Made by a program: the position numbers and the translations under genes. The notes beneath the pieces were generated by a model, which was given only the letters and a program-made list of their open reading frames with translations, was not told the DNA's origin and searched no databases. Of a stretch of DNA of 64,000 nt, positions 10,001 through 61,301 are shown one piece after another (the stretch's first letter is position 1; every line of letters begins with the position of its first letter). The stretch covers positions 372,001 through 436,000 of the forward strand of contig NW_026931531.1 in assembly GCF_032062105.1 (NCBI RefSeq). The letters are read 5' to 3'. Origin of the DNA: Saccostrea cucullata (Eukaryota).

Positions 10001-10354
10001 CAGATAAGAACAAGAAAGACGATGATGAGGGTGAAGATGAGGATGAAGAGGAAGAGGACAAGGTAAGAAAAAAGGGAGACCACCCAGGAATAACCCCCCC
10101 CCCCTCCAGAATAATTATTTTACTTTCTTGAGGATAAAAGCTGGGAACATGCAGAAAATATATAATTTTATATTCACCATGCAAAAAGTGTATGCCATTG
10201 TGAAAAAATATTACATGGCTTGAACTTTAATGAAGGACTCTTTGATCATTCATTTAGAAAATATATATCTCGGTATTTGAGAACCATTTATTAATGTATT
10301 TCTTTTCTTTTTATGTAGGAAGAAGAGGATAAGGCCACTAAAGATGAATTATAA
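7074..10354 (+). CDS. CALR: Calreticulin, 9 exons: 7074-7158, 7549-7653, 7849-8055, 8175-8404, 8925-9113, 9211-9354, 9466-9646, 10004-10062, 10319-10354
   Basis: Signal peptide [16 protein letters not shown]; signature motifs [12 protein letters not shown] and IMFGPDICG; P-domain repeats ([26 protein letters not shown]); acidic C-domain; ends [11 protein letters not shown]. All introns are GT-AG and phase-consistent. Confidence 0.98.
8525..8884. mobile_element. MITE in calreticulin intron 4, CAGGGTT..AACCCTG termini, 5-bp TSD (ATAAT)
   Basis: Short TIR, ATAAT on both flanks, and subterminal CACTAGTCC/GGACTAG repeats. Confidence 0.7.
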
Positions 10355-19000: not shown

Positions 19001-22000
19001 AAATTTTGAAGCACAGAGCTTATGTACATGGTAAGCACACTTCCTAGTCCTAATAACTAGCCAGAAGTAAAGTTTGCTACTGTAAGCATTGGCTCCCTAA
19101 GTTATGACCTCCTTCACACTTTTAAAAGGCACTTATATTCATAAGCATCCAATGTTTATCAATTACAATATACTAAGTTATGACCTGAACAAAACTCCAA
19201 GAACAGAAGGATGGAGAGACAGATGGGCAGAGTGATTCCTACCCCTCCCCCCTTTCCAACTCAGTTTGCAGGGGCATAATATAATTTAAACATGCAACTA
19301 AAGAGCTCTCAATATTGATATGTTTTTGGTTTAAAACAAGAAGAATCTTTGGAGACAAGATAGACTATTTTTTTTCATTCAAAGCCTTGATTTCATTTAA
19401 GGATAATTTTTTGTGTTAATTATTAATATCAGAGAAAGAGAAAGATAACTAAGACCAATCACACTCAGATTCAGAAAACTAAGTATCAAGAAATTAATAA
19501 AGCATCTATAGCTACTGGAACAAAACTTACTTCATATATAGGCTCATCTACCTCATGCTCACCGGAGTTGTCCTAGTGATTTTATGTGAACAAGTTTACA
19601 AGGAAGCCACGAAAATCTAATACTAAGAATACTAAGGTCATGTACTATGTACCGGTACATGTACTGGATCAACAAACTACATCATTAATCGATCACAATT
19701 GTCTAAAATTTATAACAGCACTCTAGGTCTATATGTCTAACATTAAATGTACATTATCAATTGATTTCATAAAGGCTTCAGAGCTGTGAGAGTTTTACCT
19801 TTGAGTCTGGTTCATCATCTGTGGATGACTCTGTGGTTAATTCACCACCAAGTTGTACAACTGAATCAAAAAGATTATAGAGATTATATCAATGGTTTAA
19901 TATTTTTTATATTAAAAGAAGGAAGAAAAATAGTAAACATATAGGTATCTACCCAAAAAAGTGACCTTTAAAATGAAGGTAAAATTTTAAATCAATCAAT
20001 CCTTCAACTTCCTCTTTATACAAAATTTACAATAATAGATGAGACAATGAATTCTTCAAAATACCAATAAACATTTATTTTACACATAATCATTTATTCT
20101 TCTAACCAAACTGCACAATATGATTGATTGATAATGTTAAATATTCATGAAACAAAAAATTTGAATTTTACAGAATTCTTTCAAGCTAACAAAGATTTCT
20201 TCTGTAACTTCAATCTCTGACGTTGGTGAATCAAATCACTGTTCCAGAACATGCATTGATGAAATTGTCATTGTACGACAAATACTAAATTCATCTCTTG
20301 AATTTTTTTGAGCTGGCATACTAGTTTGGTTTCAATAAATAATAACAAGCTCAAGGGAAGAACCACCTCCATTAGCTTTAAGATGGCCATTCATCAAAAA
20401 TTCATACAACACCCTATGCAGTCTAAACATATTTGGTGGTTTAAATCCCTAGATGCATCACTGATGCAAGTTTGGCCCAAACATAAATAAATATTATACT
20501 GGTCGCTCTTCTGGAACGTACAGGTCAGACACAGCATAGTCTGTATCTTAAATTGTATCACAAAATTAAGTCTACCCTAAGGCCTACATGTACCTTCTCA
20601 GGAACAGACTAGCTCCTAGCACATTAACATCAAAATTTGGTCAATCACCTGGAAAATGTTGGTCGAATGCAGAAACTCCTACCAGTCTGGTAGTATCCAT
20701 CCCTACATGTGATATCCATGCAAGTTTAGTTATGACAGACCTAATACAATGAACTTAAAGGGAAATGAGAATATTGGACCTGACCAAAAAAACTTTTAAC
20801 CCAGACAGACAGTGATAAAGCTCCTCCCTATGGTGACCGATTGTTAACCAGGGAATGACTATTGTGTTTGGACTGCTTACCATTGTTTGGCATTTCTTAC
20901 CAGGGAATGACTATTGTTTTTGGACTGCTTACCATTGCTTGGCCTTTCTTCTTTCGGTTTGTCATCTGTCTGTTGTTTGGCAGCCTCCATCTCTTTCTTC
21001 TTGTTTTCATACACCACTTGGAAGAGGTCTCTCAGGGTCAACACCACATTTTCTGCCTACAATATTTTTTGAAATTTCATAAAATTCATTTACCGGGGTA
21101 TTTATAGAAAATTGGAGTGACGTCTTCTTCAAACTGTGTTAGAAGTACTCCAAGCAAGCAAGAACTTACAGACAGTGCTTGATATCATGGAAAAGAACAA
21201 AATTGCAACACTTACCGCTTTTTCTGTTTTGATTCCAAAGAATTTATGAGTTCTATCCTCTGTCCCAAATATATAACCAAATGCTCGTCTGTCACTCACA
21301 TCCCGAGAAATGAAAGAGATCTTATGAACAGGATGATGGTGCAATAATGTCTGAAATACAAGGTCTTTGGATGAAGTAATGCAGAGAATTTAAAATGCAC
21401 CATTACTCATAGAAATTTAGGGAGGTAAATAATTTTTGTGGAACACAATTTTTTGCTGTTTTTGAGGGTAGAGAGAGCATGATGATAGTACTCACAGCTG
21501 TTCTTAGGTCAATGAGTTTGATCCCCTCCTCTGAAATGTTAATTATAATTCTCTGCTTGTGTTGACCAGCAGCCTTGACCGCCATTTTCTGAGCCAGAAT
21601 GGTTTCCTGACACATCCTGTCCCCCCTGGCGTCGGCGACATCGCTCACTCCAATCAGCTTGGCATTGAACACCACGCCCTCACCTTTAAATCGGAACGGG
21701 TCATTCCTAGGATCTGCATTAAGAAAATGTAAAATTAATATCTGTGTCAAATACATACAGGAATAACTTTCATACTTCAATTTCACAATCCTCATTGCCG
21801 TATTTATTTACATTCCAGATTTTCATAGTACATAATTGTAGACAACACATTTCCTTTGAACCAAAACAACTTATTGTTTCCTGTCCCACTGGATTTATTT
21901 CAAACACCAGCCTAACAAAATCCTTCTCTTCTATTTCCCTTTTTATGAGTTCAGCTAATATTCATACTCAGGTAACAATTAGAAGCTATCAAGTACAACA

Positions 22001-23753
22001 AACAATTATCATCTTTGGTTATCTTACCTGTACTTATACTTCCAGTATCTGACTGCAAACGAAGAAATGAAGACATATTGATACAAACCACCTCCAACAG
22101 TGATTATTTCACTCTACATTCTCACTGAGCAATACTTACAGTGTATAAGTTTTATATATTAAACAAACAAAGTATGTAAATCACCTGCTTTAAAGGAAGT
22201 TTTTCTTCTTATTCAGAATTATCACAAGATTGTCATTCTATCGTTAATAGTCTAAGGTTCATTTTATATTATACGATGTCTAGTCATCTTTATACTTTAC
22301 GTGTACAAGTAACTGTCCTTGTTGCAAGTCTTAGTGTGTGGTAAGTTTCTGCAATTTCCTAAGTGATATGTAATCAATTTTGTTTGTTTTGCTTTGGTCA
22401 TTTACTTGTCAGGGGCATGGAAAGATTTATTAATTACTGAACAGACATATCTAAATTCCTCTACAGGAGGTTTATGCTATAGTTTAAGTTACCTACCTAG
22501 GGATGGTTTTTCTTATAGTTTAGTTTACCTACCTACAGGAGGTTTTGTAACCTAAGTTATTTACCCATCGAAGGTTCCTGTAATAGTCTAGATAACCTAC
22601 CTACAGGTTTCTGTAATAGTTACCTACCTACAGGAGGTTTCTGTAATAGTTACCTACCTACAGGAGGTTTCTGTAATAGTTACCTACCTACAGGAGGTTT
22701 CTGTAATAGTTACCTACCTACAGGAGGTTGTTGTAATAGTTACCTACCTACAGGAGGTTTCTGTAATAGTTACCTATGTTACATGAGGTTTATGTAATAG
22801 TTTACCTACAGGATGTTTATGTAATAGTTACCTACCTATATGATGTTTTTTGTTATAGTTACCTACCTACAGGAGGTTTCTGTAATAGTTACCTACCTAC
22901 AGGAGGTTTATGTAATAGTTCCCTACCTACAGGAGGTTGTTGTAATGGTTATCTACCTACAGGAGGTTTATGTAATAGTTACCTATCTACATGAGGTTTA
23001 TGTAATAGTTACCTACCTATAGGAGGTTTCTGTAATAGTTACCTATCTACATGAGGTTTTTTGTAATAGTTACCTACCTACAGGAAGTTTATGTAATAGT
23101 TACCTATCTACATGAGGTTTATGTAATAGTTACCTACCTACAGGTGGTTGTTGTAATAATTACCTACCTACAGGAGGTTTATGTAATATTAACCTACCTA
23201 CAGGAGGTTTTTGTAATAGTTATCTACCTACAGGAGGTTTATGTAATAGTCTAGGTTACCTTCCTACAGGGGGTTCCTGTAATAGTTAGGTTACCTACCT
23301 ACAGGAAGTTTCTGTAATAGTTACCTACCTACAGGAGGTTTCTGTCATAGTTACCTACCTACAGGAGGTTTTTGTAACAGTCTATTTTACATGTACCTAC
23401 AGGAGGTTTTTGTATTATTTACCTGTCTACAGGAGATTTTTGACAGTCCTTTTTTGACCTACTAACACGTTGTTGTTTTAATAGTTTTAGTTACTTACCT
23501 ACAGGAGGTTTTTTGACGGCCCGTTTTTGTTGTGGCGTGCTGTCTGTTTTAGTAACCTACCTACAGAAGTTTTTTTTTGACGGCCCTTTTTTGTTGTGGT
23601 GTGCGTCTATTATAGTCTAGGTTACCTACCTACAGGAGGTTTTTTGACGGCCCGTTTTTGTTGTGGTGTGCTGTCTGTGGGAGTGGTGGTGGTTGTGGCA
23701 GCTGCTGGTTCTGATACGGAGGTCTCAGGAGTGGATGTGGTTTCTTCAGACAT
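13060..23753 (-). CDS. DAB: Disabled (DAB1/DAB2-like) PTB-domain endocytic/signalling adaptor. Coding exons: 23630-23753, (22028-22048 micro-exon), 21496-21713, 21216-21350, 20933-21056, 19799-19860, 19531-19572, 18138-18218, 16394-16840, 15116-16306, 14127-14192, 13060-13095
   Basis: PTB domain [29 protein letters not shown]...[24 protein letters not shown]...[27 protein letters not shown], as in DAB1/2. It is followed by many DPF motifs, DPW, NPF and a proline-rich region. Exons join in phase with GT-AG boundaries; the small exons are less certain. Confidence 0.93.
17095..18060. mobile_element. Non-autonomous Tc1/mariner-like element, copy 2 (right TIR missing), in a Dab intron
   Basis: Starts TA-CAAGGGTTGTCC and is colinear with 306-1310 (e.g. 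AATACTAACCAAATTTTGCA, AATGTAAGGCGATCT, GTACACTTACATTCTTTT). Confidence 0.75.
18363..18531. mobile_element. Small TA-flanked MITE (CAGTAA..TTACTG, pogo/Tigger-like ends)
   Basis: TA-CAGTAAAAC ... TTATTACTG-TA. Confidence 0.45.
22460..23640. repeat. 30-bp minisatellite (~35 copies, GTTACCTACCTACAGGAGGTTTCTGTAATA) derived from the Dab first coding exon/intron junction
   Basis: The unit is visible directly. Its reverse complement contains AAACCTCCTGTAG|GTAGGTAAC, identical to the real donor at 23630. Confidence 0.95.
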
Positions 23754-29010: not shown

Positions 29011-30237
29011 TGTCCCCCGCTTTCGCGAAAGCGAGGGGACATTAAACCTCCTCCGTCACATCTGTCAGTCTGTCAGTCTGTCCGTCACATATGCCCATAA
29101 CTTTTGATTTAAAGCTATGAAATTTCACAAGTGTATTCCTTGTGACAAGACCTTTCTTTAAAACCACCAAATTTGACCTTTTGACCTTGACCTTGCTTTC
29201 ATCACTTTTACACAGAAATTTCAAACTTTTACTTTGGTCATAACTTTTGAATAAAAGGTACTAGGACTTTCATATTTTACAAATGTATTGTTTGTGACAA
29301 GACCTTTCATTGGATACCAACAACCTTGACCTTTTGACCTTGACCTTGGAGATTTGCGTACTTACATAAAAAACGTTAACCTTGACCATAAGTTTTGAAC
29401 GGTGAGGACTAAGGCTTTCGTACTTCACAATGTAATATATTATTGGATACCAAGAACTTTCACCCTTTGACCTTGACCTTGGAGTTTTAACTACTTTTTA
29501 AAAACTTTAATCTTGGTCACAACTTTTAAACAGTAGATACTGAGACTTTTATATTTCACATATGTATTCCTTGTGCAAGACATTTCATTGGATACCAACA
29601 ACCTTGACCTTTTGAACTTGACCTTGGAGATTTTAACTTTTCATAACTTTTGAACGGTGAGGGCTAGGGCTTTCGTACTTCACATATGTAATTTTTTTGA
29701 GAAGACCTTTCATTGGATACCAACAACTTTTATCCTTTGACCTTGACCTTGGAGTTTTAACTACTTTTAAAAAAAAAACCTTTAACTTTGGTCAAACTTT
29801 TGAAACTAGGACTTTTATATTTCACAAATGTATTTCCTTTCATTGGATATCAACAACTTTGACCTTTTGACCTTGACCTTAAAGATTTACGTACTTATGT
29901 AAAAACTTTAACCTTGACAACAACTTTTGAACGGTAAGGGCTAGGGCTTTCATACTTCACATATGTAATCCTTGTGAGAAAACCTTTCATCAACAACTTT
30001 GACCCTTTACTCTTGACCTTAGAGTTCACCTACTTTTAAAAAACGTTAACTTTGGCCATAATTTTTTAACGGTCAGGAGAAGGGTTTTCATCCTTCAAAA
30101 AAATCAACTTCAATGATAATTTCTATGAAATGACATATGACAAATGTTCATATTAGACACAATATGTCATAAAAAAATAACATCTCACCAACAAAGACAC
30201 CGAAAGCGGGGGACCACAATTCTTTGAATTTGCTTGT
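29011..30237 (+). mobile_element. Helentron-associated non-autonomous element (HINE-like) with internal ~160-170 bp satellite array
   Basis: Sub-terminal IR GTCCCCCGCTTT / AAAGCGGGGGAC, 5' hairpin, (GTCT/GTCC)n microsatellite, about 6 tandem TTTGACCTTGACCTT-containing units, and a 3' hairpin AATTCTTTGAATT in T-rich flanks. Confidence 0.8.
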
Positions 30238-41148: not shown

Positions 41149-42637
41149 CTACAAAAGCTGAGTTGTGACTGGTCTCCAACCAGATTTTACCTTATTTAGT
41201 TTTACCATTTGTAATGGCGTCAGTTTGAATTCCTGTAACTCTTTTACAGATAGTTCATTAATGAAGGCGCCATCCAGTTTCTCCGCTTGACAAACGTCTG
41301 CCATTTCCCAGAGTCCACATTTTCGAAGACAAGCAACTAATTCGGTTACACCAAGATCACTGAAGTTTGTTTTAGATGAAATTTGTTGGACTTCTGTTTT
41401 AATTTCTTCGAAACTTGGTGCCACTTTCCCTACTGGTCTTAACATCACAGTTCCAACAGGTTTTCCCTTTTCTGAGCTCAAAGAAATATCTCTGAAATTA
41501 CCCATGTCTACATAGTCTGGGGGATTGTTCATGTTAGTGGGTTGTTGTTCTTGTGGTTTCCATGGCCGTGGAGATGGCTTGTTTGCAATCTCGAGTTTTC
41601 GCTGCAAGTTCGTGGAGAGAAAGTCGCGGGCTTTGTTTACATGATTTATGTTGTTCATAGCAGTGACATGAGCTGGTGATTTTTTCAGAAAGGATGGCTT
41701 ATTTGCTAATGGTGGTTTTGAATTTGGTGGAAAGAACTGCTTTTCTGGTTGCTTTGGTGATGGCGTAGGGTACAGATATTCCTCCGATTCGCTCTCTTCA
41801 TCCGGATTCTCAAATAACTTGGCTTTCATCGACACGTTTTTACGTGGATTTGCGTACTTCCTGCTGTTTGTACAGAGATCGCTCAAAGACCTTCCCAGTT
41901 GACTTCCACCACATCGTTCCCCGTTCCGTTTCCTTTTTGCATGGCTTCTTGGTAGTGTGGTGATATCGGGTGGCGGCGGCTGATGTACCTCCTTTTTCAG
42001 CAGGGACAAGTCGGGGTAGTTATATTCGTGTGACAGTTCCGCCGCGCGGATTTCTTGTTCTGATGGAAGTCTTTTGGTTTTGGACCTTTTTGGGCTCCCA
42101 GCGGGGAGGTCGTGTGGGGGACGGGAATCTATATCTGAAGTCACAGGACTTAGTTTCATCAAAATGAGGACTCGTCTCACTGCATGACGAAACACTTGTA
42201 ACTGTCAAGAGGAGGGAAAAATGCATGTAAAAGCTTATTTAAACTTGTATAAAATGATTAACATAAATCAAGTTGTTATTTATATGATTACTAGTATTTG
42301 TATCATTGTTCTTAATTTTCCGAATTGATTGTGACGGTGGACACCCCATTTTATTCGATGGACACAGAGCACCGTCACGTAAGGTATTAACATTTTAAAA
42401 GTTTGTTATTTGTCGTGAACTTTATTTTATTGTGAACAGCATACAGTGAAAAAACCCTTTAGAATTTAAAAAATATATATAAATAGATAAACAAATTAAT
42501 ACATATAATAGAATTTATTTTAAAAAAAGATTTATGTTCACAATGTATACTAATTATGTGAGCTTTCTGAAAAAAATGCTGATTTGTACCTTTGAAGTCA
42601 AGGCATCACTCAGGCGATTTCTGACCGAGTCTCCCAT
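41149..42637 (-). CDS. Pro/Tyr-motif-rich adaptor with C-terminal GAREM-type SAM domain (main exon 41149-42201; N-terminal exon 42590-42637 and/or 42923-43000, uncertain)
   Basis: 348-aa ORF ending FSDLGVTELVACLRKCGLWEMADVCQAEKLDGAFINELSVKELQEFKLTPLQMVKLNKVKSGWRP, a SAM pattern with the GWRP ending seen in GAREM. Acceptor at 42201 and two in-frame phase-0 upstream donors. Confidence 0.75.
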
Positions 42638-43229: not shown

Positions 43230-45524
43230 ATGAAGTATCTACAGATTTTCGTTGTCCTGTTAATTGTGGGATTGGGTGCCGCACGGAGAGGTAAGATAAC
43301 CCAGACAGAAATATAAAACTTACTCTCCGCTAGTCTTTCTGATGTATAAGGGTGTTTTAATGATTTTACTGGTTGTATCTTTGTTAGTTTTTCTTATTTT
43401 CTAGTTTTCAGTTTTTATATCCTTTTGATATATTTGTTTGGATTTTGAAAGTCTAAATGTTTTGAAAGTCATTCCTTGTAATACTAAATCTTTCAAATTT
43501 ATATAAATATAACAACCATATGTTAAAATTGGAAAGTTACACAAAACTGAATATTTTTGATAACGCATGTATTATATAGAACAAGCTGTATAGTATTCAA
43601 AGTCAACATTTTGACTTAAGTCTGTTCACAGTTTATGGTCTGCAGGCCTGGCTTAACACCGCTATGAAGACTTAACATGTAAGGCAGATTTTTTTTCTAT
43701 TATAGGCAGAAGGTTTCGAATATTCTGTTCTACAGAAGCAGATTGTCCCCACTTTTCCACATGTGTTAACATGGGTCTTGCGGACAAAAGCGTTTGTTTG
43801 CCAAGTATGATTGCACTCTTTTTATATGAGATAAATTAAAGTTTTATTTTACAAGCAGAATTGGTAATTATTTTGAATAAATACTGCTAGTATTTAATGC
43901 CAATATCTTTCACAATCCTTTAAAGCATTTATGAATTTATCGCTTTGTAGAAAAAATGGTGAATATAAGGATGGAAATGAAATTATCCAGGCTTCCATCT
44001 TTGGCAAGTTGTACTGAGGATAGCGACTGTGAAAATGTCGGGAAATGTGAAGAGGTGCCTAACTTTGGAGTGCGCATGTGTATGCCAGGTGCGTTGTCAG
44101 TTTAAGTTTATATGCTGTTTATACCTTAAAAAATTAATTAATTATTATAAATATAGAATAAAAAACATGGAATAAAAATGGAAAATTATAGAATACAAAT
44201 AAAAATTATACAATAAAAATGAAGAATTATTCAATATTAATGGAAAAAAATCGAATATTGCAACGGGTTAACATAGCATACCGTTCACTTTGATATATTT
44301 AAAGAGAAACAAGCATCGCCAATTCTTGTATTATGTATTGTATGATGTAGAATACAAATTCTCGTAACATGACTTTATGTGTTGTAGGTTTCGTCAGTAA
44401 GATGCTTAACAAAAAAAGTGATCAACTGGCAAAGACCTGCACCTCCGAGAACGACTGTGGCGCTTCCTCTAAATGTATAGAGTTTCCAAAATTCGAAAAA
44501 CAGATCTGTTTATTTGGTAAGTTTCCTTTCCCAGCTATAATTAAAACAAATTGAAAATGAATGAATTGATATGAATTTAAAATTAAATCAAGACGTATTT
44601 GTGAAAAGCCCCCTTTGGCAGCATGTTTTGTAGCTTGTGGCGAAGGTTAAGATTTCTGAAATGGTAGTCAAACTCCAAGGTCAAGAGATAAAAAATGCTG
44701 TTACCTATAAAAAGGATTTGTCTATCTGAACATATAAAAATACATCGAAGATGAAAACATTTATGTGGTCTTCATTTCAGAAAATAAACTTTTACACAAA
44801 ATGATGGTAAGCATCCATAGTAAGTTTGTAAAGGTGGACCAAGAACAACCAGATATCGATACAGAGGAAGACAAAGAGGACGGGAAAGATGACACCAAAG
44901 GACAAGAGGGAGAGAATGATCTGGATGATAATGACGATGATAACGATGATGGTAAGGATGATGATTTGGAGGATGCTTCATTTATCAATGATTCTCAGTT
45001 TCTTACCAAGATAGATGACAACGATGAGATATACAAAAAATTCATCAGTGCGCACAAGGCGTACCGCGGGAAGGGATCCTGGAACATGTTTTTCATGGGT
45101 GCCTTTTCAATGGCGGGAGTCGTGATCCTCATTTTATTTTCTCTATTATGGTTAGTTATTTCAAAATTACATAATTTCCTGCTATATACATATTAATGCT
45201 GTCTCTATAGAATCTGTGTCCGTTGAAATGAACATTATATATGATTTTTTTAAAAATATATAAATTTATGAATATTCATTATCGGAATTGATATTGAAAA
45301 TTTGGAATGTGAATTGCATTCAGTTTTCCAAGGTCAGTGATAATAAATTTGATGATTTTTTTTTATCCAGTTGCTTGACCGTCAAAAAGAGAATGTCAAA
45401 GAAGCACAGAGAGGAATCCGGCGAAACAGGAAAAAAGGGACTTCGCAACGTGTTCCTGACAAAAATCAGCGCTATTCCAAATCCCTACAGTAAACTCGAA
45501 GAAGAGAAGGGCGTTAAGATATGA
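43230..45524 (+). CDS. Uncharacterised type I membrane protein: signal peptide, three 4-Cys modules, Asp-rich stalk, TM helix, YSKL tail. Exons 43230-43290, 43706-43804, 43951-44088, 44388-44516, 44781-45150, 45371-45524
   Basis: MKYLQIFVVLLIVGLGAARR|G..CSTEADCPHFSTCVNMGLADKSVCLP|..CTEDSDCENVGKCEEVPNFGVRMCMP|..CTSENDCGASSKCIEFPKFEKQICLF|..DDNDDDNDDGKDDD..FFMGAFSMAGVVILILFSLL|CCLTVKKR..NPYSKLEEEKGVKI*. All boundaries are GT-AG and in phase. Confidence 0.85.
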
Positions 45525-49440: not shown

Positions 49441-49586
49441 CTAATGCTTTCGATAACCACCTCTCCAAATTATAAGCCTCTGATATCTTCTCCAATACCT
49501 CCTCCCCTGAAATCTCCTGTTAAACCTTATCCTTTGGAATCTTCTACCATACCAGTTGCTGTTCTGTTGTTGTGCCTCCTCGACTT
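49441..49586 (-). pseudogene. Orphan last exon (copy C) of the cationic-peptide gene family: (E)VEEAQQQNSNWYGRRFQRIRFNRRFQGRRYWRRYQRLIIWRGGYRKH*
   Basis: Intact acceptor, open frame and the same TAG as copies A and B. Intron homology to 55650-56720 stops at ~50670, and no signal-peptide or Cys exon was found between there and copy A. Confidence 0.65.
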
Positions 49587-51764
49587 CTACAATATTGTAA
49601 TCAGTAATAATCGGTTATTTTACAAAATGTGAAATAATAAAATTAATAAGAAAACTGTTTTAACTTTCTAATTAATATATAAAAAATTCTACCCCTCTAC
49701 TTTGCAAATACATGTATATCATTTCTTCTTCGAAACGTTCTGCTTTGATTGTAATCCTTCCTTTCAGGAAGTAATTGTATGTTGCCAAGGCAAAAAAATC
49801 AAAGTCTATGGGAAATTATTATAGACAAATTTTGGCAATTTGATCAGGAAAGTACTGTATGTATACTTTAAAAAGCGGGCCTTATATTTTAAGCGGCCAA
49901 CGATGCGCTAATTCATGATTACTGCAAATACAATTATTAATACAATATACAACGCATTAGGGTATTGCGCTAATTATCCATAAATGCGCTAACAACTCAA
50001 CACCAAGTGATCGCGCTAAATTTGAATTCGCCAATTCATGTACAAGTTTGGTATCTTTGCTAACCACCAACCTGAAAAAAAACCCAATTAAGTACATGAT
50101 CGGAATCATTGCTTAACCTCTGAAAAAATATTTCTTCGCGTGCATTATCACATATGCCGGGAATTACTATATTTTAAAAATACATAGGCAGACTTTGAAC
50201 AATCGTTACATACTTGTTTCTTAAAATTATGTGTGTTTGTCTGCCTAAAGTGATTTTGAAATTATGAAACTAACTGGTTGATGACATTCTTTGAAACAAG
50301 GTTAAAATCAAAAGTTATCTGATATAAAATTAACTGCATTTGGAGCGCAAGTTTTGAAAGTTGCATGGTGATCAAGTTGGAGATGTCCAAAGTTACAATA
50401 GCATCTGCTCACAATTTTGTGCTTATTCATTTTTATTTGAGTTAGATACGTCTACAGACTTAATTTCATGTGTTTTTTTTCAAATAATTTAATCAAATAA
50501 TAATTCAGTAAAAAATAAACTATTAGTTAAAAATATCAGAGGTCAGAACACAAAAGCTAGCAAGAGAAACTGGTAGCGATTAAAGTATGAGAGTTTAAAA
50601 GTTACTTTGGTAAAATAATTTGTAATTTGGTAAAATAAATATTTTTCGTCAAGAAAATATAAAGGTCTTTCATGAGTGTTCACTCCTCCATGGCATCTTA
50701 TCCCACCTCTTCTGTCTCAGAGGTCCGTGTTTGCTCCTGATTTGTATTGTTTAATGAACTTTTTATCTTTAATAGTGTTCGTTAGTAAATATATTACATT
50801 CTGTAAAAAGAAGATTACTATATACCCTCCCGTTTTTAAGCGGGCGTATAATGATGTCAGTAAGTCTTCAATTTACCATATGGTAGAAATGTCTGAAGTG
50901 TTGAAAAGTCGTACGTTTGGATGATATTGATTTTGAAATAAAATGACTTTGATTTTAAAAACGTTGTTCAGGTATTTTACATATTACATCAATGCAATTA
51001 TTCTAGAAATTTAAATTATCTTCAAGAAATGGAAGTATTCTCATCAAATTTTATCGTGACAAAAATGGACTCAAATTTTTGTAAAGAAGTTGACGTATTT
51101 AAATTCAGTAAATGTAGAACACCTTCTGTTGTACAATTTGTATATTCTTCCCAGCATTAACGATTTCATTCTGATGCATAGTTATGACAGTGAATGACTT
51201 TGATGAAGAAAAATCATTTGCCTACATCTTCCCAGATCTGACCAATTTGCGTTCATGGCACACCCTCCACCCGTCAGCGATACACCTCGTTACCAAGCGT
51301 CATTTAAATAGTAAAACTAATATGTAAAATCCAACCAATCTCTGAATAGAATCAAAGGAATGTTAATTGATATGAAGAAATGACAACCGAGAAAGTTTTT
51401 ATTGCAGGCTTTTACAATTTTATTTTATATCAATTTCTATTAAAACATTAAAGAAATCTCTTGCCGTGGACTTAAATTCGGCAAAACGACGATTAAAAGT
51501 TTTCATGATCATTTCTACTTTGAAATGTTGTATCCCTTTAACTCAAATCAAAAATAAAGAGAGAAAAGTAAAAAAGAGTCTATTGCATATAAACATATTT
51601 TGATATTTTAATAAAATAGACTTTGATGACGAAGTAACAAAGTAGACGTTGTTATAAGAAAGTAGTACTCGAGTGTCTGCCTCTAAACCCTCCCCTCTTG
51701 CTGAGTAACATGAAGAATACACACTAGTTGTTCTATATTTAAGCTGTACTGGTCCAAGACCAGA

Positions 51765-52290
51765 AGAGAGCTTATAAATGCGAAAGTAAGTTGTCTGTCG
51801 TCCGTCCGTCTGTCTGTCTGTAATCATTTTATTTTTCAAAATGCTACTCCTCCTACGGTTTTAGTCAGATTTTAATATAACTTGGCACACAAGTAGATTA
51901 CACTGAGATACCTAATTCTAAATATTGGTTTTGATTTCGATGCCATGATTACAGAAATTTCTTTGAAATATTTTCAAAATTCTACTCATCTCAAAGTTTT
52001 GGTCTTATATCAATATGACTTGGAACACAAGTAGACTTTACTAAGATACATAATTCTTCGTATTAATGTTGTTGCCATGGTTACTAAAAATATAAATTAT
52101 TTTGAAATATTTTCAAAATGCTATTCTTCCTATAGTTTTGTTCTGATTCAATATATCAAGAAAACAACTAAAGCAATGATCAATTTTTAATGTATTGCTG
52201 TTGCAAATTTTCAATTTGAAATGGTACTTTATTATCTCCTTAGTTATAAGAATATACCAGTAGAGCTACACCTCGTGAAACTCAGTTATA
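51765..52290 (+). mobile_element. HINE-like element, duplicated at 58107-58626 as part of a segmental duplication
   Basis: (GTCC/GTCT)n head, ~125-bp internal repeats (CTTGGCACACAAGTAGA..CACTAAGATAC), and a shared 3' end ATACCAGTAGAGCTACACCTC..GAAACTC.GTT. Confidence 0.65.
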
Positions 52291-52602
52291 ACATACAGAA
52301 TTCGATAAGGCGGGAATAGATTCTCGTTATCTTAATTAAAATAGCAAGAAACACATTATAGGTGTTTAAAATTGAAAAAAATAATTTCTCATGTAAAACA
52401 TGCTACACTTTGTATCTTTCACTCATGTCGATTCATTCGGACCGCCTTTTGCACAGTACCAAGTCTCATGATATTTTTAAAAAGTTTCCAACATATTAAC
52501 TTATCTTATGCATCCAATAAACGTGGAAGGGCGAAATGTAATGATAATTTTGTTGGGCATGTACTCCAGGGTTATTCCTATCCTAAACTCAACCCAGCGA
52601 CC

Positions 52603-54397
52603 CAAGTTCATTTATTCACTCAAACCATTTAAAGTATATGGTACATGAGGACAATGAAAAATATTTACAGCATATATACATTCTGGTCAGAGGTATAAGT
52701 ATATGATATATATAATAAGACAATGAAGTGGAGAAGAAAATGAAGAGAAAAAAAATGGAAAAAGGGAGGGAAAAAAACACGTAATAATGAAATGTGAGGA
52801 AAACAATTATGGAGGGCAGACTAAATCATATATTTTTAATATAAACGTACAGAGTTTTTTAAGTGTCATATCATCTTGTTTTGTCATCAGTTGAGAAAAT
52901 TTAAGAACATTTGGTCTAGTAAAGTAGTATTCATTAATATACTTTTTCCTTATGTTTGACAGTGCAGTACATTCAAGCATAAAATGAAATTCATCAGCAA
53001 TTTGTTTAGCATTACAAAGTGTACATAATCTTTCACTTAATGGTATTGATGCCCATCTTCCCAGCTCAACTGGTAGATGGTGATTAGTAGTACGAAATTT
53101 GGCAAGTATTTTCCTTAATTTTAATGACAGAGTACTTAAATACTTTTCACACTCAAAATTTGTTTTAAAAATTTTATACAAAGTACCTTTGGAAGAACTG
53201 TTAATATCAGAATGCCATTTTTGTATAAATTGATCTTGTAATCTTTGTTTAACAACAGTAGTAACCCAGTCTTGATTAGGATTATGATAAAACTGTTCAT
53301 TCCAGATATAAGAAAGTCCACATGATTCAAAAATACGATTAACACAGTCAATCCAAGGGTTCTTACCAATTTCAGATTGTGAGTTAGCAATTAAAAATTG
53401 ATACAATATACATGAAATTTTCTTATCTGTGCTATTCAATAATTTACACCAGTATGAGACTATTCTTGAATAAATAAGGACAGATAATGGAAAACGTCCT
53501 GTTTCACCATAAACCATATAATTCGGGGTACTACTTTTCAAATATAGAATATGTTTCAAAAATTTTAAATGAACACGTTCAATAATATCTAAGTTTTCAA
53601 AACCCCAGATTTCACAACCATAAAGTAACACTGGTAAAACCATTTTATCGAACAGATCAAGTTGACATTCTACAGGGAGGTTAAATTGTCTTATTTTTCT
53701 GATAACACCATACATAGCTATTTGGGCTTGGTCACAGAGATGTTTCTTGGCTTTTAGAAAGGAGCCAGATCTTGAAAATATGATACCAAGATATTTAAAT
53801 TCTTTGACAGTTTCTAGAATCTTGTTATTATAGTAAAAAACTCTTTTGTTTAAAGGGCCTTTAGAAAAAATTAATAGTTTGGTCTTCTCTATATTTACTT
53901 GTAATTTCCACTCTGAGCAGTAGCTTTCAAATTCATTCAAAGCATTTTGTAGATCATCAGGAGTTTCTGCTAAAATGACAGTATCATCGGCATATAAAAG
54001 TATAAGAAGTTTCAAATACACACATAAATCATTTTCTATAGAAGTCGTAAGGCTTTGTAAACCAATTATATTTCTATCAACAAGATAATTCTCTAGGTCA
54101 TTAATATACAACAGATAAGTTTTCACCTTGTCGTACTCCGACATTACAAAAGAAAAAATCGGTTGTATTGCCGTTCATCTTTATAAGTGATTTAATACCC
54201 TGATACATATTTGTAATATACGTGAAGCATTTGCCTTTAATTCCATAATTTAAAAGTTTACTCCAGAGACCGTTTCTCCAAACAGTGTCAAACGCTTGCT
54301 TGAAATCTATAAAAGCACTAAAAAGTTTTTTCTTACACTTCATCAGTGTGTTTGATAAAAAATGTAAAGTCAGAATATGGTCTAGAGTAGAATGTTC
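52603..54397 (-). mobile_element. 5'-truncated non-LTR retrotransposon (LINE, RTE-X/CR1-group-like) reverse transcriptase, one frameshift near 54110
   Basis: FIDFKQAFDTV, GVRQGENLS, LLYADD, FKYLGI and C-terminal RLCTLC..DEFHFMLEC; the 445-aa ORF is uninterrupted; AATAAA lies near the 3' end. Confidence 0.92.
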
Positions 54398-55497
54398 TCA
54401 ACTAGATTTGGAACTGAATGTTCAAATAAGCTATTCTGTAAATGTAGTAATTGGGCAGACAAGGTACAAATTAAGGACTGAGCTATTAATAAGATTCTGA
54501 ATCTCGCCAAATAGTGCATACATGTATTGTATGTAATTTATGTCGGTTCAGTGAATTTCTACGATTGTGATTAACTTAATGTCTTATTCTAACTTTATCT
54601 ACATCTCGCACACAGATATGATAAAAAAAAAATTAAGATTAGAAAATTGCAAACGTTTGTAGTTGTTAAAAAATATTTTTCAAAAGAAGAAATCATAAGT
54701 AAATTTTTTAAAGTAATTTTAAGCCCAAATTACTAAATTACTAAAATAAAATTACTATGAAGAGTTTATACTGATATATCGCATCATATAAAAATGAAAG
54801 GAATATTTGTAGTTGATAAAATGTCGTCGAAACACCTAAATATTGAATTATTGACCCGGCAAAGCTGGAGGTATGTATGTACCCGCAAGTACATATCCAA
54901 ATTTAAGTTTAAATATTTGATTGATAAATTGTTTCAACATTTTTTTTCACAAAAGAAACATTTCATTTATCTCTAATAATAAAAAAAAAACATCCATCAG
55001 TTCTTGATGTTTTATTGAGGCGTGTGATGTAAACATTTTCTTTCCTGTACAAAAGATATAATGGCATTATTGAATACATGTATACTTTCCAAACAATGAT
55101 TAGAATAAAATTATTCAACGAAAACAATGAAAAGAAAATCATGCATTTCACATAATTGATAATATTATTTCAAGTTAAAAAAAGGATTTTTCAAGTAATT
55201 GAAAATTACTTGATCCACATAACGCATTAATTTTGCCGGATGGCGTCAAGTTATCAAATGGTATTGCGATCATCGTAGTTTTGGTAAATTCAGTGCAGTA
55301 ATATTCAATGCATTGAAACGTTTAAATGTCGTTAAATACTGTAAAACTGATTTTTGATTCTTCATTCGGAAAAAAAGTTATATTTGAATGATGTCTCTGT
55401 AGTTATTTCCGAGGCCCATTTCCTTTCTACAGCGTAGACAGTGCTGCGACCAAATCCCCTCAAGGTCTTTTATAAACCCTTTCCTCTGAAATCTTCT

Positions 55498-57243
55498 CTA
55501 ATACTTTCCATGATATTTCCTCCAAATTATAAGCCTCTGATATCTTCTCCAATACCTCCTCCTCCTATGAAATCTTCTGTTAAACCGTATCCTTTGGAAT
55601 CTTCTTCCATACCAGTTGCTGTTCTGTTGTTGTGCCTCCTCAACTCCTACAGTAAAGTAATCAGTAATAATCAGTTATTTTACATGTAAAATAATGAAAT
55701 TAATAAGAACAAAACTGTTTTAACTTTTTAATCATTATAAAAAAAAATCTTTCCCTTTATTTCACAAATATATAATTTCTTCTTCGAAACGTTCTACTTT
55801 GATTGAAATCTTTCATTTCAGGAAGTAATTGTATGTTGTCAAGAAAAAAAAAATCAAAGTCTATGAATATTTATCATAGAATTTTTTTTGCATTTATGAT
55901 CATGGAAGTACTATAGGTATACTTTAAAAACTTTCTTTACATTTTAAGGGCTTTGGCGGGGACAACGATGCGCTAATTCATAAATACCGCAAAAAAATAT
56001 TGATACAATATACAGCGCATTAGGGTGTAGTGCTAATTCATGAATGCGCCTACAACTCAAAACCAAGTGTTTGCGCTAAATTTGAATTCGCCGATTTATG
56101 AACAAGTTTAGTATCTTTTCTAACCGTCAACTAAAAAAAAAAAATGTTTTAGTACATGTTCGGAATCTTCGCCTAACCTCTGAAAAAAAAAATTCTTCTC
56201 GTGTATTATCACATAACAATAAATATATAGGCAAATTTTGATCAATCGTTACATACTTGTTTCTTTAAATTGTGTGTATTTTGTCTGGCCAAAGTGATTT
56301 TGAAATTATGAAACTAATTGTTCCATAACATCTTTGAAACAGGGTTAAAGTCAAAAGTAATCTGATATCACATTTAATGTGTTGGGAGCGCCATTGTCGA
56401 ACAGTTTCATGGTGATCAAGTTTGAGATGTCCAAAGTTACATTTACATCTGCTCACAATTTTGCGCTTATTCATTATTAATGCATTGAGATAGACATGTC
56501 TATAGAGTTTCACGTGTTTTTTTTTTCATATAATTTGATTCAAATAAAAAATTCAGTTAAAAAATAAAAAATATTAATTACAACGATCAGAGGCCAGAGC
56601 GCAAAAGCTTGCAAGGGAATCGAAAAACCGGTAGCGATTAAATTATGAGAGTTTAAAAGGTACTTTGGTAAAATAATTTGTAAATTGGTAAAATAAATAT
56701 TTTTCGTCACGAAAATATAACAGCTGTTGTACAAGAGTTCATTCAGAAACGTTATATGTCGAAATTAAAATACAAAACATTGTACTTTCTATCAAAAGGC
56801 TTTGATGGATTTATAATTCAAACATGAAGTCACATGATATGAAGTGTCTAACTTGACCACCTACCCGGAATACACATGCTCTCCCCCAGGTCCGGAATCT
56901 CTTCACATATCTCCAGGTCGTCACAGTCACTGTCGAAAGAGCAGCTTTTGAGAGGCGGAGGTTGGGGTACGTCATTTTCTGCCGAATCTGAATGGTTTGT
57001 GACATATAAGTGTCGCTATTAGGTAAAACATTTGAATGCTATGTTTGAATACTTGTTACTGATAACACTAGCAAGTCCTTAGAGCATCTCTTTGTTCAGT
57101 GTAATCAAACATTATAAAGACACAGATGTAGTTATGTTAACAGATATATAACAAAAGTCTTGTATGAGACTTATTATCTTACCTTTTCCTGCCAGACCCA
57201 ACCCAACAATCACAAGGATAAGGAAAATCTGTAGATACTTCAT
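55498..57243 (-). CDS. Secreted prepropeptide, copy A (110 aa): signal peptide, anionic 4-Cys domain, Arg/aromatic cationic tail. Exons 57183-57243, 56865-56987, 55498-55646
   Basis: MKYLQIFLILVIVGLGLAGK|DSAENDVPQPPPLKSCSFDSDCDDLEICEEIPDLGESMCIP|GVEEAQQQNSNWYGRRFQRIRFNRRFHRRRRYWRRYQRLIIWRKYHGKY*. Phase-1 GT-AG introns; differences from copy B are mostly synonymous. Confidence 0.85.
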
Positions 57244-58813
57244 GGTGGTTACTTTTGTCTCATCTGATGAAAAATTACTGAATTCCTTTTTATATATTTA
57301 GGGACATGGTATTTGAGGTCATACCGACGTAAATATAGCACACAAGTTGTTTATATTATTGTCTATTGTACAACAACATCCGCTCACCAATTCGGATTTA
57401 ATTTATTGTGCATGGAGTAAAATCCTTCTAAACCAATGCCATATGCTCGTTTCTGTAATTTCCTTAACTTTGATAGATTCTAAGGAAAATAAGTTTAACT
57501 GTACTAAAGCGGATTCTGCATTGCAGAACCACGAAAGGTAAAAATGAGATCCTGAAAGTAATATAAGGTTCGTGAGTTCAAGACGTATAAGTAAATAATA
57601 CGTAGAAACTTGCAGCTTCTTATGAAATATCATGAAAAACATTTTTTTAAATATATTTTTTTTTTCTTTCCTTTTTCATTTTAGCATTTAATTTATTTTT
57701 ATAAAAAGATCCATTTATCTTCATTTTTTAAAAAAAAATATACCGGTATGATGCAAAAAGGCTCTGTTATTTAACAGATTCTAGGAGGACAGCAGCAATT
57801 GGCCCCCGAAACCACAGATCATATAGAAACTGGTTTCTAAAACCTACATGAGAGTTTTTCAATACGACAGTCAATTTAATTTTTATATCAACATTCGATT
57901 GATTGTGTTTAGAATCAAAATCTGTGATGACTTTAACTTTCAATCGTACGTTTGACTCAATGACCTTGTCAGCAAATACACATGAACAATCTGAGAATTT
58001 TCATACTAATTGTTTGGTCATTATGTACATACTGAGTTGTCGACGGGTTTTTCCAAAATTAGCAAATTTTCCGAAATTATCAAAATTATTTAAATTATCA
58101 AAAATACTAGTCCGAGACCAGAAGAGCTTATGCAAAAGTAATGGGTCCGTCGTCCGTCCGTCTTTTTGTCTGTACACATTTTTTTTTCAAAATGCTAATC
58201 CGCTTACGGTTTAGGTCTGATTTTAATATTACTTGGCACACAAGTAGACTACACTAAGATACTAATTACTGGGTTTCGATGAACGGTATTGCCACGTTTA
58301 CTAGAAATTTCTTTGAAATTTTTTCAAAATTCTACTCTTACAGTTTTGATCTTATTTCAATATCTTGCAACACAACTAAACTACACTAAGACACATAATT
58401 CTTTGTATCTGTTGCCATGGTTACTAAAAATATAAATTTCTTTGAAATATTTTCAAAATGCTATTCCTCCTACTGCTTTGGTCTGATTTCAATATATCTT
58501 GCCAAGAAAATGACTAAACCAATGATTAATTTATTGCTGTTGCAAAGTTTCAAGTTCAAATGCTACTTCATCTCTCCTTAGTTATAAGAAAATACCAGTA
58601 GAGCTACACCTCTTGAAACTCTGTTATAACATACAAAATTTGATAAGGCGGGAATACATTCTCATTATCTTAATTAAGATAACAAGAAACACATTATAGG
58701 TGTATAAAGTTGAAAAAAAGAACGACTTCATTTCTCATGTAAAACATTTCACATTTTGTATGCTGTTTAACTTTCACCTCGAGTCGATTCAATGCCCCTT
58801 TTTGCACAGTACC

Positions 58814-59395
58814 AAAGAAGAAGGTACAGTTTCAATACAAATAAAGCCCTATATTTTTCTAAAATATGAAAGTGATAGAAGAAATTAAAATTAATTCTTT
58901 TTGAATCATAGGAATCTCTGCAGTAAGAATACACAAATGGTTTTCCTCATATGACCTCCTAAATGCCAATTGTGACGTCATTAACTTGTGCATTTTCCCG
59001 TATTTTCTTAAAAAGTTGCAGAAGACCTCAATTTTCAGGGAATTTTCTTTCAAAAAACATACTCTGCCACCGTCGCCCGGAAAGATTTTGAGATAAGTGA
59101 TTTTTCATAGCAGTTCACATAATATATCCAAAAATTAAAGTGGGCGACGGTGGCAGACACTATTTTCTAAAGGAAAATTAGTAGAAAAACGAGTCATTTT
59201 GAAGCTTTTCTGCATTAAACTTAAAAATGTACCAAAGTAATGACGTCATATTTCAAGAAAGGCTCTTCTTCATGTCATATTCTTTAATGATTTATCATAT
59301 TCATCTACTCAACTATTGTTAAAGCCAATTTCATAACTTTTTAAGAACATTGAATTTTTAGGGCACAATAAAGCTCAAACCGTACCGTCTTCTTT
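58814..59395. mobile_element. MITE with AAAGAAG..CTTCTTT termini and an internal 16-bp inverted repeat, in the spacer between copies A and B
   Basis: AAAGAAGAAGGTACAGTTT / AAACCGTACCGTCTTCTTT; TCTGCCACCGTCGCCC / GGGCGACGGTGGCAGA. The element is absent from the paralogous site at ~52460. Confidence 0.8.
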
Positions 59396-59843
59396 CATGA
59401 TACTTTTAAAAAGTTTCCGACATATTAACTTATTTTATGCATAAAAAAATGATGAAGGGTATTTAATGATATTTTGTTGGGCATGTGCTAGAGGTTTATC
59501 CCTATCCTAAACTCAACCCAACCACCCACCACCCTCAACTAGATTTAAAACTGAATGCTCAAGTAAGCTTTTCTGATAAATATCTCTGCCAGTGTTTTGC
59601 ATTTGTCGTTTAAAGTTTATCTATTTATCAATGTTACGGAAATGAATGGCATTGGTTTGGAAGGATTTTACTCCATGCACAATAATTTAATTCCGAAATT
59701 GTGAGAGGATGTTGTTGTGCATTAGACAATAATATCAACAACTCGTGCTATATTTACAATCTAAATGACCTCAAAAACCTCGTCTCAAAGACATAAAAAG
59801 GGAATTCAGTAATTTTTCATTAGATGTGACAAAAGTAACCACC

Positions 59844-61301
59844 ATGAAGTATCTACAGATTTTCCTTATCCTTGTGATTGTTGGGTTGGGTATGGCAGGA
59901 AAAGGTAAGATAATAAGTCTCATACGACTTTTGTTATATATCTGTTAATATAACTACATCTGTGTCTTTATAATGTTTGAATACACTGAATAAGAGATGA
60001 TTTGCGGACTTGCTAGTATTATCAGTAACAGGTATTAAAACTTACAGCATTCAAATGTTTTAACCTAACAGTGACACTTATATTTCACAAACCATTCAGA
60101 TTCGGCAGAAAATGACGTATCCCAACCTCCGCCTCTCAAAAGCTGCTCTGACGACAGCGACTGTGACGACCTAGAGATATGTGAAGAGATTCCGGACCTG
60201 GGGGAGAGCATGTGTATCCCAGGTAGGTGGTCAAGTTAGACACTTCATATCATGTGACTTCATGTTTGAATTATAAATCCGTCAAAGCCACTTGATAGAA
60301 AGTACAATGTTTTGACATTTTAATTTCGACATAAAACTTTTCTGAATGAAGTCTCATAAAAGATTTTAAAAATTTATTTCTTGAAGAAAATATCAATTTT
60401 TAAAATCAGAGGGAAAAAAGCTCTAAATCTCTAATAATTTAATAGCTACCGGTTTTAAAATCCTCTTGCAAACTTTTGCACGCTGACCTTCTAAAACTAG
60501 TAGTTTAAATGTTAATTGATTTTTTCAATTTTGATTGTATTATTTTAAAAAAACCCACATGAAACTCTATAACACGTGTCTACTCGATCAGTTAAATGAA
60601 TTAGCGCAAAAATGTGAGTAGATATAATTGTAACTTTGGAGAATTCCATATTTGAGCTAAATGTACTTATCACCTTAAAACTGTCCAATATGGGCACTCT
60701 AAACACATTTAAGTGATATTAGATAACTTTACACTTAGTTTCATCTTTTCAAAACCACTTTAGACAGACAATATATACACACAACACGGTCATGCACGCC
60801 AAGAAATATTTTCAAGAGGTTAAGCGATGATTCCGATCATGTACTAAATCAATTTTTTTTAGGTTGACGGCTAGCAATCAAGTGTAAAATAGGTCCCTGA
60901 TCTGTGATTCCCCATCAAAAATGCTCAAATTTTCAAACATACATTTTTCTTTAACAAATCGTCGAATCCTTTGAATTTGAATTTGCTGTCTTTGCAATCT
61001 ATAATCACTTGCTGAAATGAAGGATTACATGTTACAATCAAAGCAGAATATTCGAAAAGAAGTGGAATAACTGTAAAATAGAGGGAGATAATTTTTTATA
61101 ATAATTTTAACAGTTCTATTCTTATTAAGACTGTACATGTAAATATTTACTGTAGGAGTCGAGGAGGCACAACAACAGAACAGCAACTGGTATGGAAGAA
61201 GATTCCAAAGGATAAGGTTTAACAGAAGATTTCAGAGGAGGAGGTATTGGAGAAGATATCAGAGGCTTATAATTTGGAGAAAATATCATGGAAAGTATTA
61301 G
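59844..61301 (+). CDS. Secreted prepropeptide, copy B (109 aa): signal peptide, anionic 4-Cys domain, Arg/aromatic cationic tail. Exons 59844-59904, 60100-60222, 61156-61301
   Basis: MKYLQIFLILVIVGLGMAGK|DSAENDVSQPPPLKSCSDDSDCDDLEICEEIPDLGESMCIP|GVEEAQQQNSNWYGRRFQRIRFNRRFQRRRYWRRYQRLIIWRKYHGKY*. Good Kozak context ACCACCATGA; phase-1 GT-AG introns. Confidence 0.85.

What the first reader, a model, noticed from the sequence alone, without database searches (positions are those of the whole stretch)
49441..61301. Purifying-selection signature fixes the reading frame of the cationic exon across three paralogues
Between copies A and B, the exon-3 substitutions GTC/GTT, AGG/CGG and AGA/AGG are synonymous in the splice-dictated frame, CAG/CAT changes Q to H, and the only indel is one whole Arg codon. 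Copy C adds synonymous GGA/GGT and AGA/AGG. Exon 2 shows synonymous AGC/AGT, CTA/CTG, ATC/ATT and CCA/CCG with all four Cys kept. All three copies share the same TAG, and a frame-breaking indel appears only after it. Most amino-acid variation is at the C-terminus (RKYHGKY vs RGGYRKH).
Basis: seen in the sequence. Interest (0 to 1): 0.7.

Follow-up and report, generated by a model that had tools for sequence, protein, structure and literature searches.

The report
Young oyster cationic-peptide precursor genes
Two spliced rock-oyster genes, plus a stranded last-exon copy, join an acidic cysteine module copied from a neighbouring membrane-protein gene to an arginine-rich tail of no known family; they likely make a secreted defence-type peptide that its acidic half would keep masked until cut, but no activity has been tested.

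Summary
The listed substitutions are real, but the list is selective and only two of the three copies are genes. Copies A (59844-61301, +) and B (57243-55498, -) are three-exon genes of 109 and 110 aa, annotated in RefSeq for Saccostrea cucullata. Spliced RNA contigs from 5 runs fix the frame. A/B differ by 7 synonymous and 4 non-synonymous changes (dN/dS 0.14-0.19, P 0.002-0.011); none of the other five frames of exon 3 shows a signal. Copy C has exon 3 only and dN/dS about 0.95 against A. Gene conversion and allelic variants weaken independence.

The genes are chimeras. The signal exon and one four-cysteine exon come from a neighbouring oyster-wide membrane-protein gene (43230-45524). The module turned acidic (net -11/-12 against -3 to +6 in 14 parent modules) and is spliced to a 27-nt-repeat exon giving a +15 Arg/aromatic tail with no relative found. 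Best reading: a young, likely Saccostrea-restricted precursor of a cationic host-defence peptide, cathelicidin-like in layout but not homologous. Function is untested.

The parts
59844..59904 (+). Copy A exon 1 (coding part): predicted signal peptide, homologous to exon 1 of gene D
   Evidence: 79% nt identity to D exon 1; RNA contig
60100..60222 (+). Copy A exon 2: acidic four-cysteine module (C-x5-C-x5-C-x10-C), homologous to module 2 of gene D
   Evidence: (65% nt identity)
61156..61301 (+). Copy A exon 3 (coding part): linker plus Arg/aromatic tail built of 27-nt repeats, ends at TAG
   Evidence: spliced contig; XP_062570865.1
61302..61617 (+). Copy A 3' UTR; begins with a fifth repeat unit; 1-nt indel near 61328
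57183..57243 (-). Copy B exon 1 (coding part)
56865..56987 (-). Copy B exon 2, four-cysteine module
55498..55646 (-). Copy B exon 3 (coding part), 3 nt longer than A
   Evidence: XP_062570889.1
49441..49586 (-). Copy C: orphan exon 3 with open frame and AG acceptor, no exons 1-2; 8 of its 12 own changes lie in the last 21 coding bases
50662..51747 (.). Sequence that replaces exons 1-2 and the promoter in the C unit; partly repeat-derived
   Evidence: high repeat-type contig depth
43230..45524 (+). Gene D, likely parent: six exons (43230-43290, 43706-43804, 43951-44088, 44388-44516, 44781-45150, 45371-45524); signal, three four-cysteine modules, acidic stalk, predicted membrane helix, basic tail; 316 aa
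   Evidence: RefSeq LOC134232909

Best explanation
Copies A and B are spliced, protein-coding genes that likely arose by partial duplication of the neighbouring membrane-protein gene D and are predicted to make a secreted precursor whose acidic cysteine module would mask an arginine-rich tail until a protease likely frees it as a host-defence peptide. Shown: exon structure, splicing, homology of exons 1 and 2 to gene D, opposite charges of the two halves (-13/-12 and +15/+16), synonymous excess between A and B. Inferred: secretion (hydrophobic N-terminus; no signal-peptide predictor was run), two disulfides in a small beta-hairpin fold, charge masking, a cut in or after the EEAQQQ linker, and binding of the tail to anionic microbial surfaces. 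Copy C is likely a pseudogene fragment left by tandem duplication and loss of its 5' half.
For: Spliced contigs across exons 1-2-3 in run X1 and X2, X4, X20, and across B intron 2 in X3: 5 runs, 3 studies. dN/dS 0.14-0.19; non-synonymous sites differ at 4 of 264 against 51 of 617 neighbouring non-coding sites (Fisher P 5e-5), synonymous sites match the non-coding rate (P 0.47). The module went from -3..+6 in 14 parent modules to -12/-11, on a long branch beside Saccostrea module 2 (support 80/87), so the charge change came with the new tail. The tail has 13 Arg and 9 aromatic residues in 35. Signal, anionic pro-region, cationic C-terminal peptide is the layout of oyster Cg-Prp (PMC3390580, passages) and, with a cathelin pro-domain, of cathelicidins (PMC4571063, PMC7481365, passages). 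Local duplication with a broken copy is also reported for mussel CRP-I defence genes (PMC10138031, passages).
Against: No activity, tissue or induction data. Raw-read depth over the exon bins was at most about 1.3 in the 2 poly-A runs laid, so expression there is low. The tail is not a classical amphipathic helix (moment at 100 degrees 0.16, shuffles 0.23). It holds several RR/RK pairs that convertases could cut into short pieces. Only 3 copies exist in this assembly and A and B have nearly the same tail, unlike hypervariable defence families. The selection test rests on 11 changes between copies that are not independent.
Confidence: 0.47

Rival explanations
1. The protein is secreted whole as a charge-blocked matrix, cement or mucus protein: the acidic module would bind calcium or mineral and the Arg/Tyr/Trp tail would bind polyanions or be cross-linked through tyrosine.
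For: Blocks of opposite charge. Basic domains act on crystal growth in pearl-oyster KRMP-3 (PMC4498902, abstract). Arg/Tyr/Trp-rich mussel foot adhesives are similar in composition (recalled, no call). No clean single processing site.
Against: No Gly/Tyr region and no sequence relative among matrix proteins; low read depth in the 2 raw-read runs (tissue unknown); near charge balance of the halves fits masking.
Confidence: 0.25
2. A prohormone-like precursor: convertases would cut at Gly-Arg-Arg and later dibasic pairs and release a short amidated peptide from the linker and the folded module as signals or ligands.
For: The sequence WYGRR has the Gly-dibasic form of an amidation site and is kept in all three copies; the linker is invariant.
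Against: The 35-residue tail would be waste, yet it is conserved between A and B; no family match.
Confidence: 0.12
3. The copies are young duplicates with little or no function; their likeness comes from recent duplication and gene conversion and the synonymous excess is a small-number effect.
For: Intron 1 differs by 7% and the first 110 nt of intron 2 by 4% between A and B, against 18% for intron 2 overall; intron 2 groups B with C while exon 3 groups A with B. P rises to 0.05 if one synonymous change is dropped. C is broken.
Against: Conversion copies synonymous and non-synonymous sites alike, yet they differ 11% against 1.5%. Intron 2 has about 47 gap blocks between A and B while the exons keep frame, splice sites and all Cys. 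Acidification of the module is directional (10 charge changes, 9 towards acid).
Confidence: 0.12
4. Copy C is not dead but an alternative last exon spliced to exon 2 of B, giving a second tail variant.
For: Same strand, 6 kb downstream of B exon 3, open frame, AG acceptor kept; first 122 nt differ from A at only 4 sites against 14-21% in the intron; some read cover in the bin.
Against: B's 3' UTR and a poly-A signal (55016) lie before it; weaker pyrimidine tract; no joint to C among the joints listed (88 were not shown); conversion can explain the conservation.
Confidence: 0.12

Closest known systems
Cathelicidins (vertebrates; PMC4571063, PMC7481365, passages read)
   Same: Signal peptide, folded pro-domain, cationic C-terminal peptide; here the tail sits on the last exon, as recalled for cathelicidins.
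   Different: No cathelin domain: a 24-residue four-Cys module from an oyster membrane protein; three coding exons, not four; no homology.
Cg-Prp of Crassostrea gigas (PMC3390580, passages read)
   Same: Oyster; signal, anionic pro-region, cationic C-terminal peptide; multi-copy.
   Different: Pro-region here is a disulfide module; the tail is 35 residues or more, Arg/aromatic-rich, with no Pro.
Myticalins of Mytilus (PMC5577615, passages read)
   Same: Lineage-restricted bivalve precursors with cationic and anionic halves; Arg/Tyr-rich.
   Different: Order reversed (myticalins: cationic middle, dibasic site, anionic C-terminus); no disulfide pro-domain.
Knottin / Dickkopf-type disulfide beta-hairpins (Foldseek)
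   Same: The module's model (pLDDT 76-81) aligns weakly with knottins, squash inhibitors and Dkk domains (best E 1.5).
   Different: Four Cys, not six; no match at E 0.001 or better; here likely a pro-domain.
Unnamed oyster type I membrane protein family (LOC134232909, LOC133199323, LOC125668883, LOC111118080)
   Same: Source of the signal exon and the four-Cys module.
   Different: Three modules, acidic stalk, membrane helix and cytoplasmic tail, all absent from A and B; modules near neutral.

Membership tests
Cathelicidins | Cathelin pro-domain | tested here: not met
   0 Pfam families at E up to 1 for P0003; the pro-region is about 45 residues and homologous to gene D module 2
Cathelicidins | Four-exon gene | tested here: not met
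   Three coding exons in spliced contigs
Cathelicidins | Signal, pro-domain, cationic C-terminal peptide | tested here: met
   Charges -13 and +15; signal inferred from hydrophobicity and homology
Cathelicidins | Protease release of an antimicrobial mature peptide | not testable with these tools
   Needs peptidomics and assays
Cg-Prp | Signal, anionic pro-region, cationic mature peptide | tested here: met
Cg-Prp | 16-18-residue mature peptide with Pro-Arg-Pro motifs | tested here: not met
   No Pro in exon 3
Myticalins | Cationic middle, dibasic site, anionic C-terminal extension | tested here: not met
   Anionic part is N-terminal
Molluscidins | No signal peptide and no anionic pro-region | tested here: not met
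   Both are present; definition from PMC5577615 passages
Knottins / CRP-I | Six-cysteine array with three disulfides | tested here: not met
   Four Cys
Knottins / CRP-I | Disulfide-stabilised beta-hairpin core | tested here: inconclusive
   Weak Foldseek matches only, best E 1.5; VIA-align rows covered only the tail helix
KRMP shell proteins | Lys-rich basic domain plus Gly/Tyr domain | tested here: not met
   Tail is Arg-rich, no Gly/Tyr region; definition from PMC4498902 abstract

The most novel reading that the evidence does not exclude
A complete host-defence precursor was built from parts of one membrane-protein gene: the signal and one disulfide exon were kept and acidified, and the gene's own acidic stalk exon was turned by frame shifts and a 27-nt repeat expansion into a poly-arginine peptide (GAA/GAT codons read as AGA/AGG), an independent and recent invention of the cathelicidin layout in oysters.
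Probability: 0.17. Interest if true: 0.78.

Novelty: new variant of a known kind. Interest (0 to 1): 0.46.

Why it matters
Bivalve defence peptides are often lineage-restricted and their origin is rarely visible. Here the parent gene, the borrowed exons, the charge reversal of the borrowed module and the new tail lie within 19 kb, so the birth of a pro-peptide/cationic-peptide pair can be traced and tested with one synthetic peptide. If the tail is active it is a new oyster defence-peptide family. The purifying-selection point alone is ordinary.

Tried and rejected
Antisense Pro-rich frame: open in all three copies (69-83 aa) but no synonymous excess and the spliced contigs use GT-AG on the other strand; rejected. 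Stop read-through: the repeat goes on after TAG, but A and B/C fall out of frame 27 nt later; rejected. Relatives of the tail: none besides P0003 itself in the word-indexed search of longer proteins (weak by the tool's own note), the HMMER search of 1.84 billion representatives (second hit covers residues 1-61 only), the Atlas, Pfam or PDB sequences. Origin of exon 3 from D exon 4 or from a decayed Cys exon: 5 of 36 exon comparisons had P under 0.05, none under 0.016; not supported. Protein-level match of exon 3 frames to parent stalks: best P 0.03 among 18 frames, nothing consistent. The shuffle used out-of-frame triplets and was redone in frame. The model of the parent protein was too poor to search (pLDDT 47). 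VIA-align returned only generic long helices. No prediction of module-tail binding was obtained, so masking is untested. Gene identifiers gave 0 papers; earlier findings nearby or by sequence gave none.
Full report
Setting. The window lies on a 489-kb contig of a 1.17-Gb genome. Copy A's exon peptides match one protein, named by its source as an uncharacterised protein of the rock oyster Saccostrea cucullata; its cluster has 2 members, XP_062570865.1 (109 aa, copy A) and XP_062570889.1 (110 aa, copy B).

Anatomy. A is on the + strand (exons 59844-59904, 60100-60222, 61156-61301), B on the - strand (57243-57183, 56987-56865, 55646-55498), head to head, with GT-AG phase-1 introns. C (49586-49441, -) is exon 3 with intron 2 and UTR. 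B and C are tandem copies of a unit of about 6 kb, but in C the stretch that holds promoter, exon 1 and exon 2 is replaced by 50662-51747. Genome searches gave 3 exon-3 matches and only 2 exon-2 and 2 exon-1 matches of this type; a local search over 164 kb gave the same.

Transcription fixes the frame. A 750-nt contig of run X1 joins A exons 1, 2 and 3. Contigs of X2, X4 and X20 join all three exons with mostly A-type letters; a contig of X3 crosses the exact 1218-nt intron of B with B-type UTR letters. That is 5 of the 7 runs laid, from 3 studies; the contig runs are labelled RNA by guess or not at all, but the joins are introns. The 2 raw-read runs gave depths of at most about 1.3 in the exon bins and no listed joint. 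The X3 B-type contig lacks the CGG codon and the 3-nt insertion of this assembly's B, so these may be alleles and not fixed differences; a chimeric contig is not excluded. Transcription of C was not resolved.

The selection claim. Placing the same 11 base changes at random gives 3.1 synonymous on average, P 0.011 for 7 or more and 0.05 for 6 or more. Non-synonymous sites (4 of 264) are far more conserved than neighbouring non-coding sequence (51 of 617; P 5e-5), synonymous sites are not (P 0.47). In exon 3 alone 3 of 3 changes are synonymous (P 0.008) and no other frame is significant. Against A, C has dN/dS 0.95; 8 of its 12 own changes fall in the last 21 coding bases (P 2e-5). The copies are not independent: A/B divergence is 7% in intron 1, 4% in the first 110 nt of intron 2 and 18% over intron 2, and intron 2 puts B closer to C (14%) while exon 3 puts A with B, as expected from gene conversion. 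So purifying selection is supported, modestly, for A and B only.

Where the genes come from. At 43230-45524 lies gene D: six exons, 316 aa, with signal, three four-Cys modules, an acidic stalk, a predicted membrane helix and a basic tail. Relatives were found in S. echinata, Ostrea edulis, Crassostrea virginica and one unnamed record (5 proteins). A's exon 1 is 79% and exon 2 65% identical to D exons 1 and 3 at the DNA level, and about 200 nt upstream also align. In a tree of 16 modules A and B join the two Saccostrea module-2 sequences (80/87, not starred) on a branch of 0.66, which suggests birth within Saccostrea. With 15 upstream residues the module has net charge -12 and -11, against -3 to +6 in the 14 parent modules; 9 of 10 charge-changing positions against D move towards acid. 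The model of A gives this module pLDDT 76-81 with a two-strand hairpin; Foldseek finds only weak knottin, squash-inhibitor and Dickkopf matches.

The tail. Exon 3 is a 27-nt repeat (autocorrelation peak 0.49 at lag 27) of units starting RRFQR; the TAG stands where two units have TGG, and a fifth unit follows the stop. The tail from GRRF has net +15 with 13 Arg and 9 aromatic residues; the pro-region has -13. No relative was found. A possible source is D's acidic stalk exon, whose shifted frame is Arg-rich. DNA alignment scores are 66.5, 70.5 and 54 for A, B, C against in-frame codon shuffles (P 0.008, 0.003, 0.058), while a calreticulin acidic exon as control gives P 0.11-0.38. Against this: the best match in the D region was within Markov shuffles of the query, the D window ranked 2 of 1762 windows and 2 of 16 purine-rich ones, behind an unrelated calreticulin window, the protein-level test was negative, and the comparison was chosen after looking. 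I give this origin about one chance in three.

Mechanism. Shown: spliced genes, borrowed exons, opposite charges, constraint in A/B. Inferred: secretion, masking of the tail by the acidic module, proteolytic release, attack on anionic microbial surfaces. The layout matches oyster Cg-Prp (PMC3390580, passages) and cathelicidins (PMC4571063, PMC7481365, passages) and is the reverse of myticalins (PMC5577615, passages); it fails the membership features of each. Against a simple lytic peptide: no helical amphipathy at 100 degrees, several dibasic pairs, low expression in 2 runs, little tail diversity. Rivals are a matrix or adhesive protein (KRMP-3, PMC4498902, abstract; mussel foot proteins recalled), a convertase-cut amidated peptide, and neutral duplicates.

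Literature. Six gene identifiers gave 0 papers; searches on oyster or Saccostrea antimicrobial peptides, exon shuffling and shell or adhesive proteins listed no title or abstract on this family; I saw these as listings only, except the six papers named. Supplementary tables were not searched and could hold expression data. The scan's earlier notes had nothing near this place or on this sequence and the 8 shown by words concern other loci.

Verdict. Observation partly confirmed; interpretation right for two genes, not three. The finding worth keeping is the traceable birth of an orphan pro-domain plus cationic-tail precursor. New variant of a known kind; interest 0.46.

Noticed in passing
window 43230-45524 (+): Unnamed oyster-wide membrane protein with three four-Cys modules; the RefSeq isoform returned skips the 99-nt exon 43706-43804.
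   Followed up: partly
window 61299-61345 (+) and equivalents in B, C: The stop sits at the Trp position of the 27-nt repeat and a fifth RRFQR unit follows, so the peptide was probably once longer; the same frame then reads SFIK, like the SFIND motif of gene D's stalk.
   Followed up: partly
window 52807-54174 (-): 455-codon open frame with a reverse-transcriptase match (Pfam RVT_1, E 6e-13), probably a LINE fragment, between copies C and B.
   Followed up: no
window 41149-42204 (-): 351-codon exon, Pro-rich, ending in a stretch that looks like a SAM domain by recall; no Pfam match at E 0.01.
   Followed up: no
window about 7400-10100 (+): Calreticulin gene (Pfam E 2e-12).
   Followed up: no
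window 15092-21807 (-): Disabled-like adaptor gene: weak DAB2 motif match (E 4e-5, below cut-off) and long Pro/Gln-rich exons.
   Followed up: no
window 22460-23700: 30-nt minisatellite, about 30 copies.
   Followed up: no
window 29100-30100, 51750-52460, 58100-58820: Arrays of 125-150-nt repeat units with high repeat-type read depth, probably non-autonomous mobile elements.
   Followed up: no
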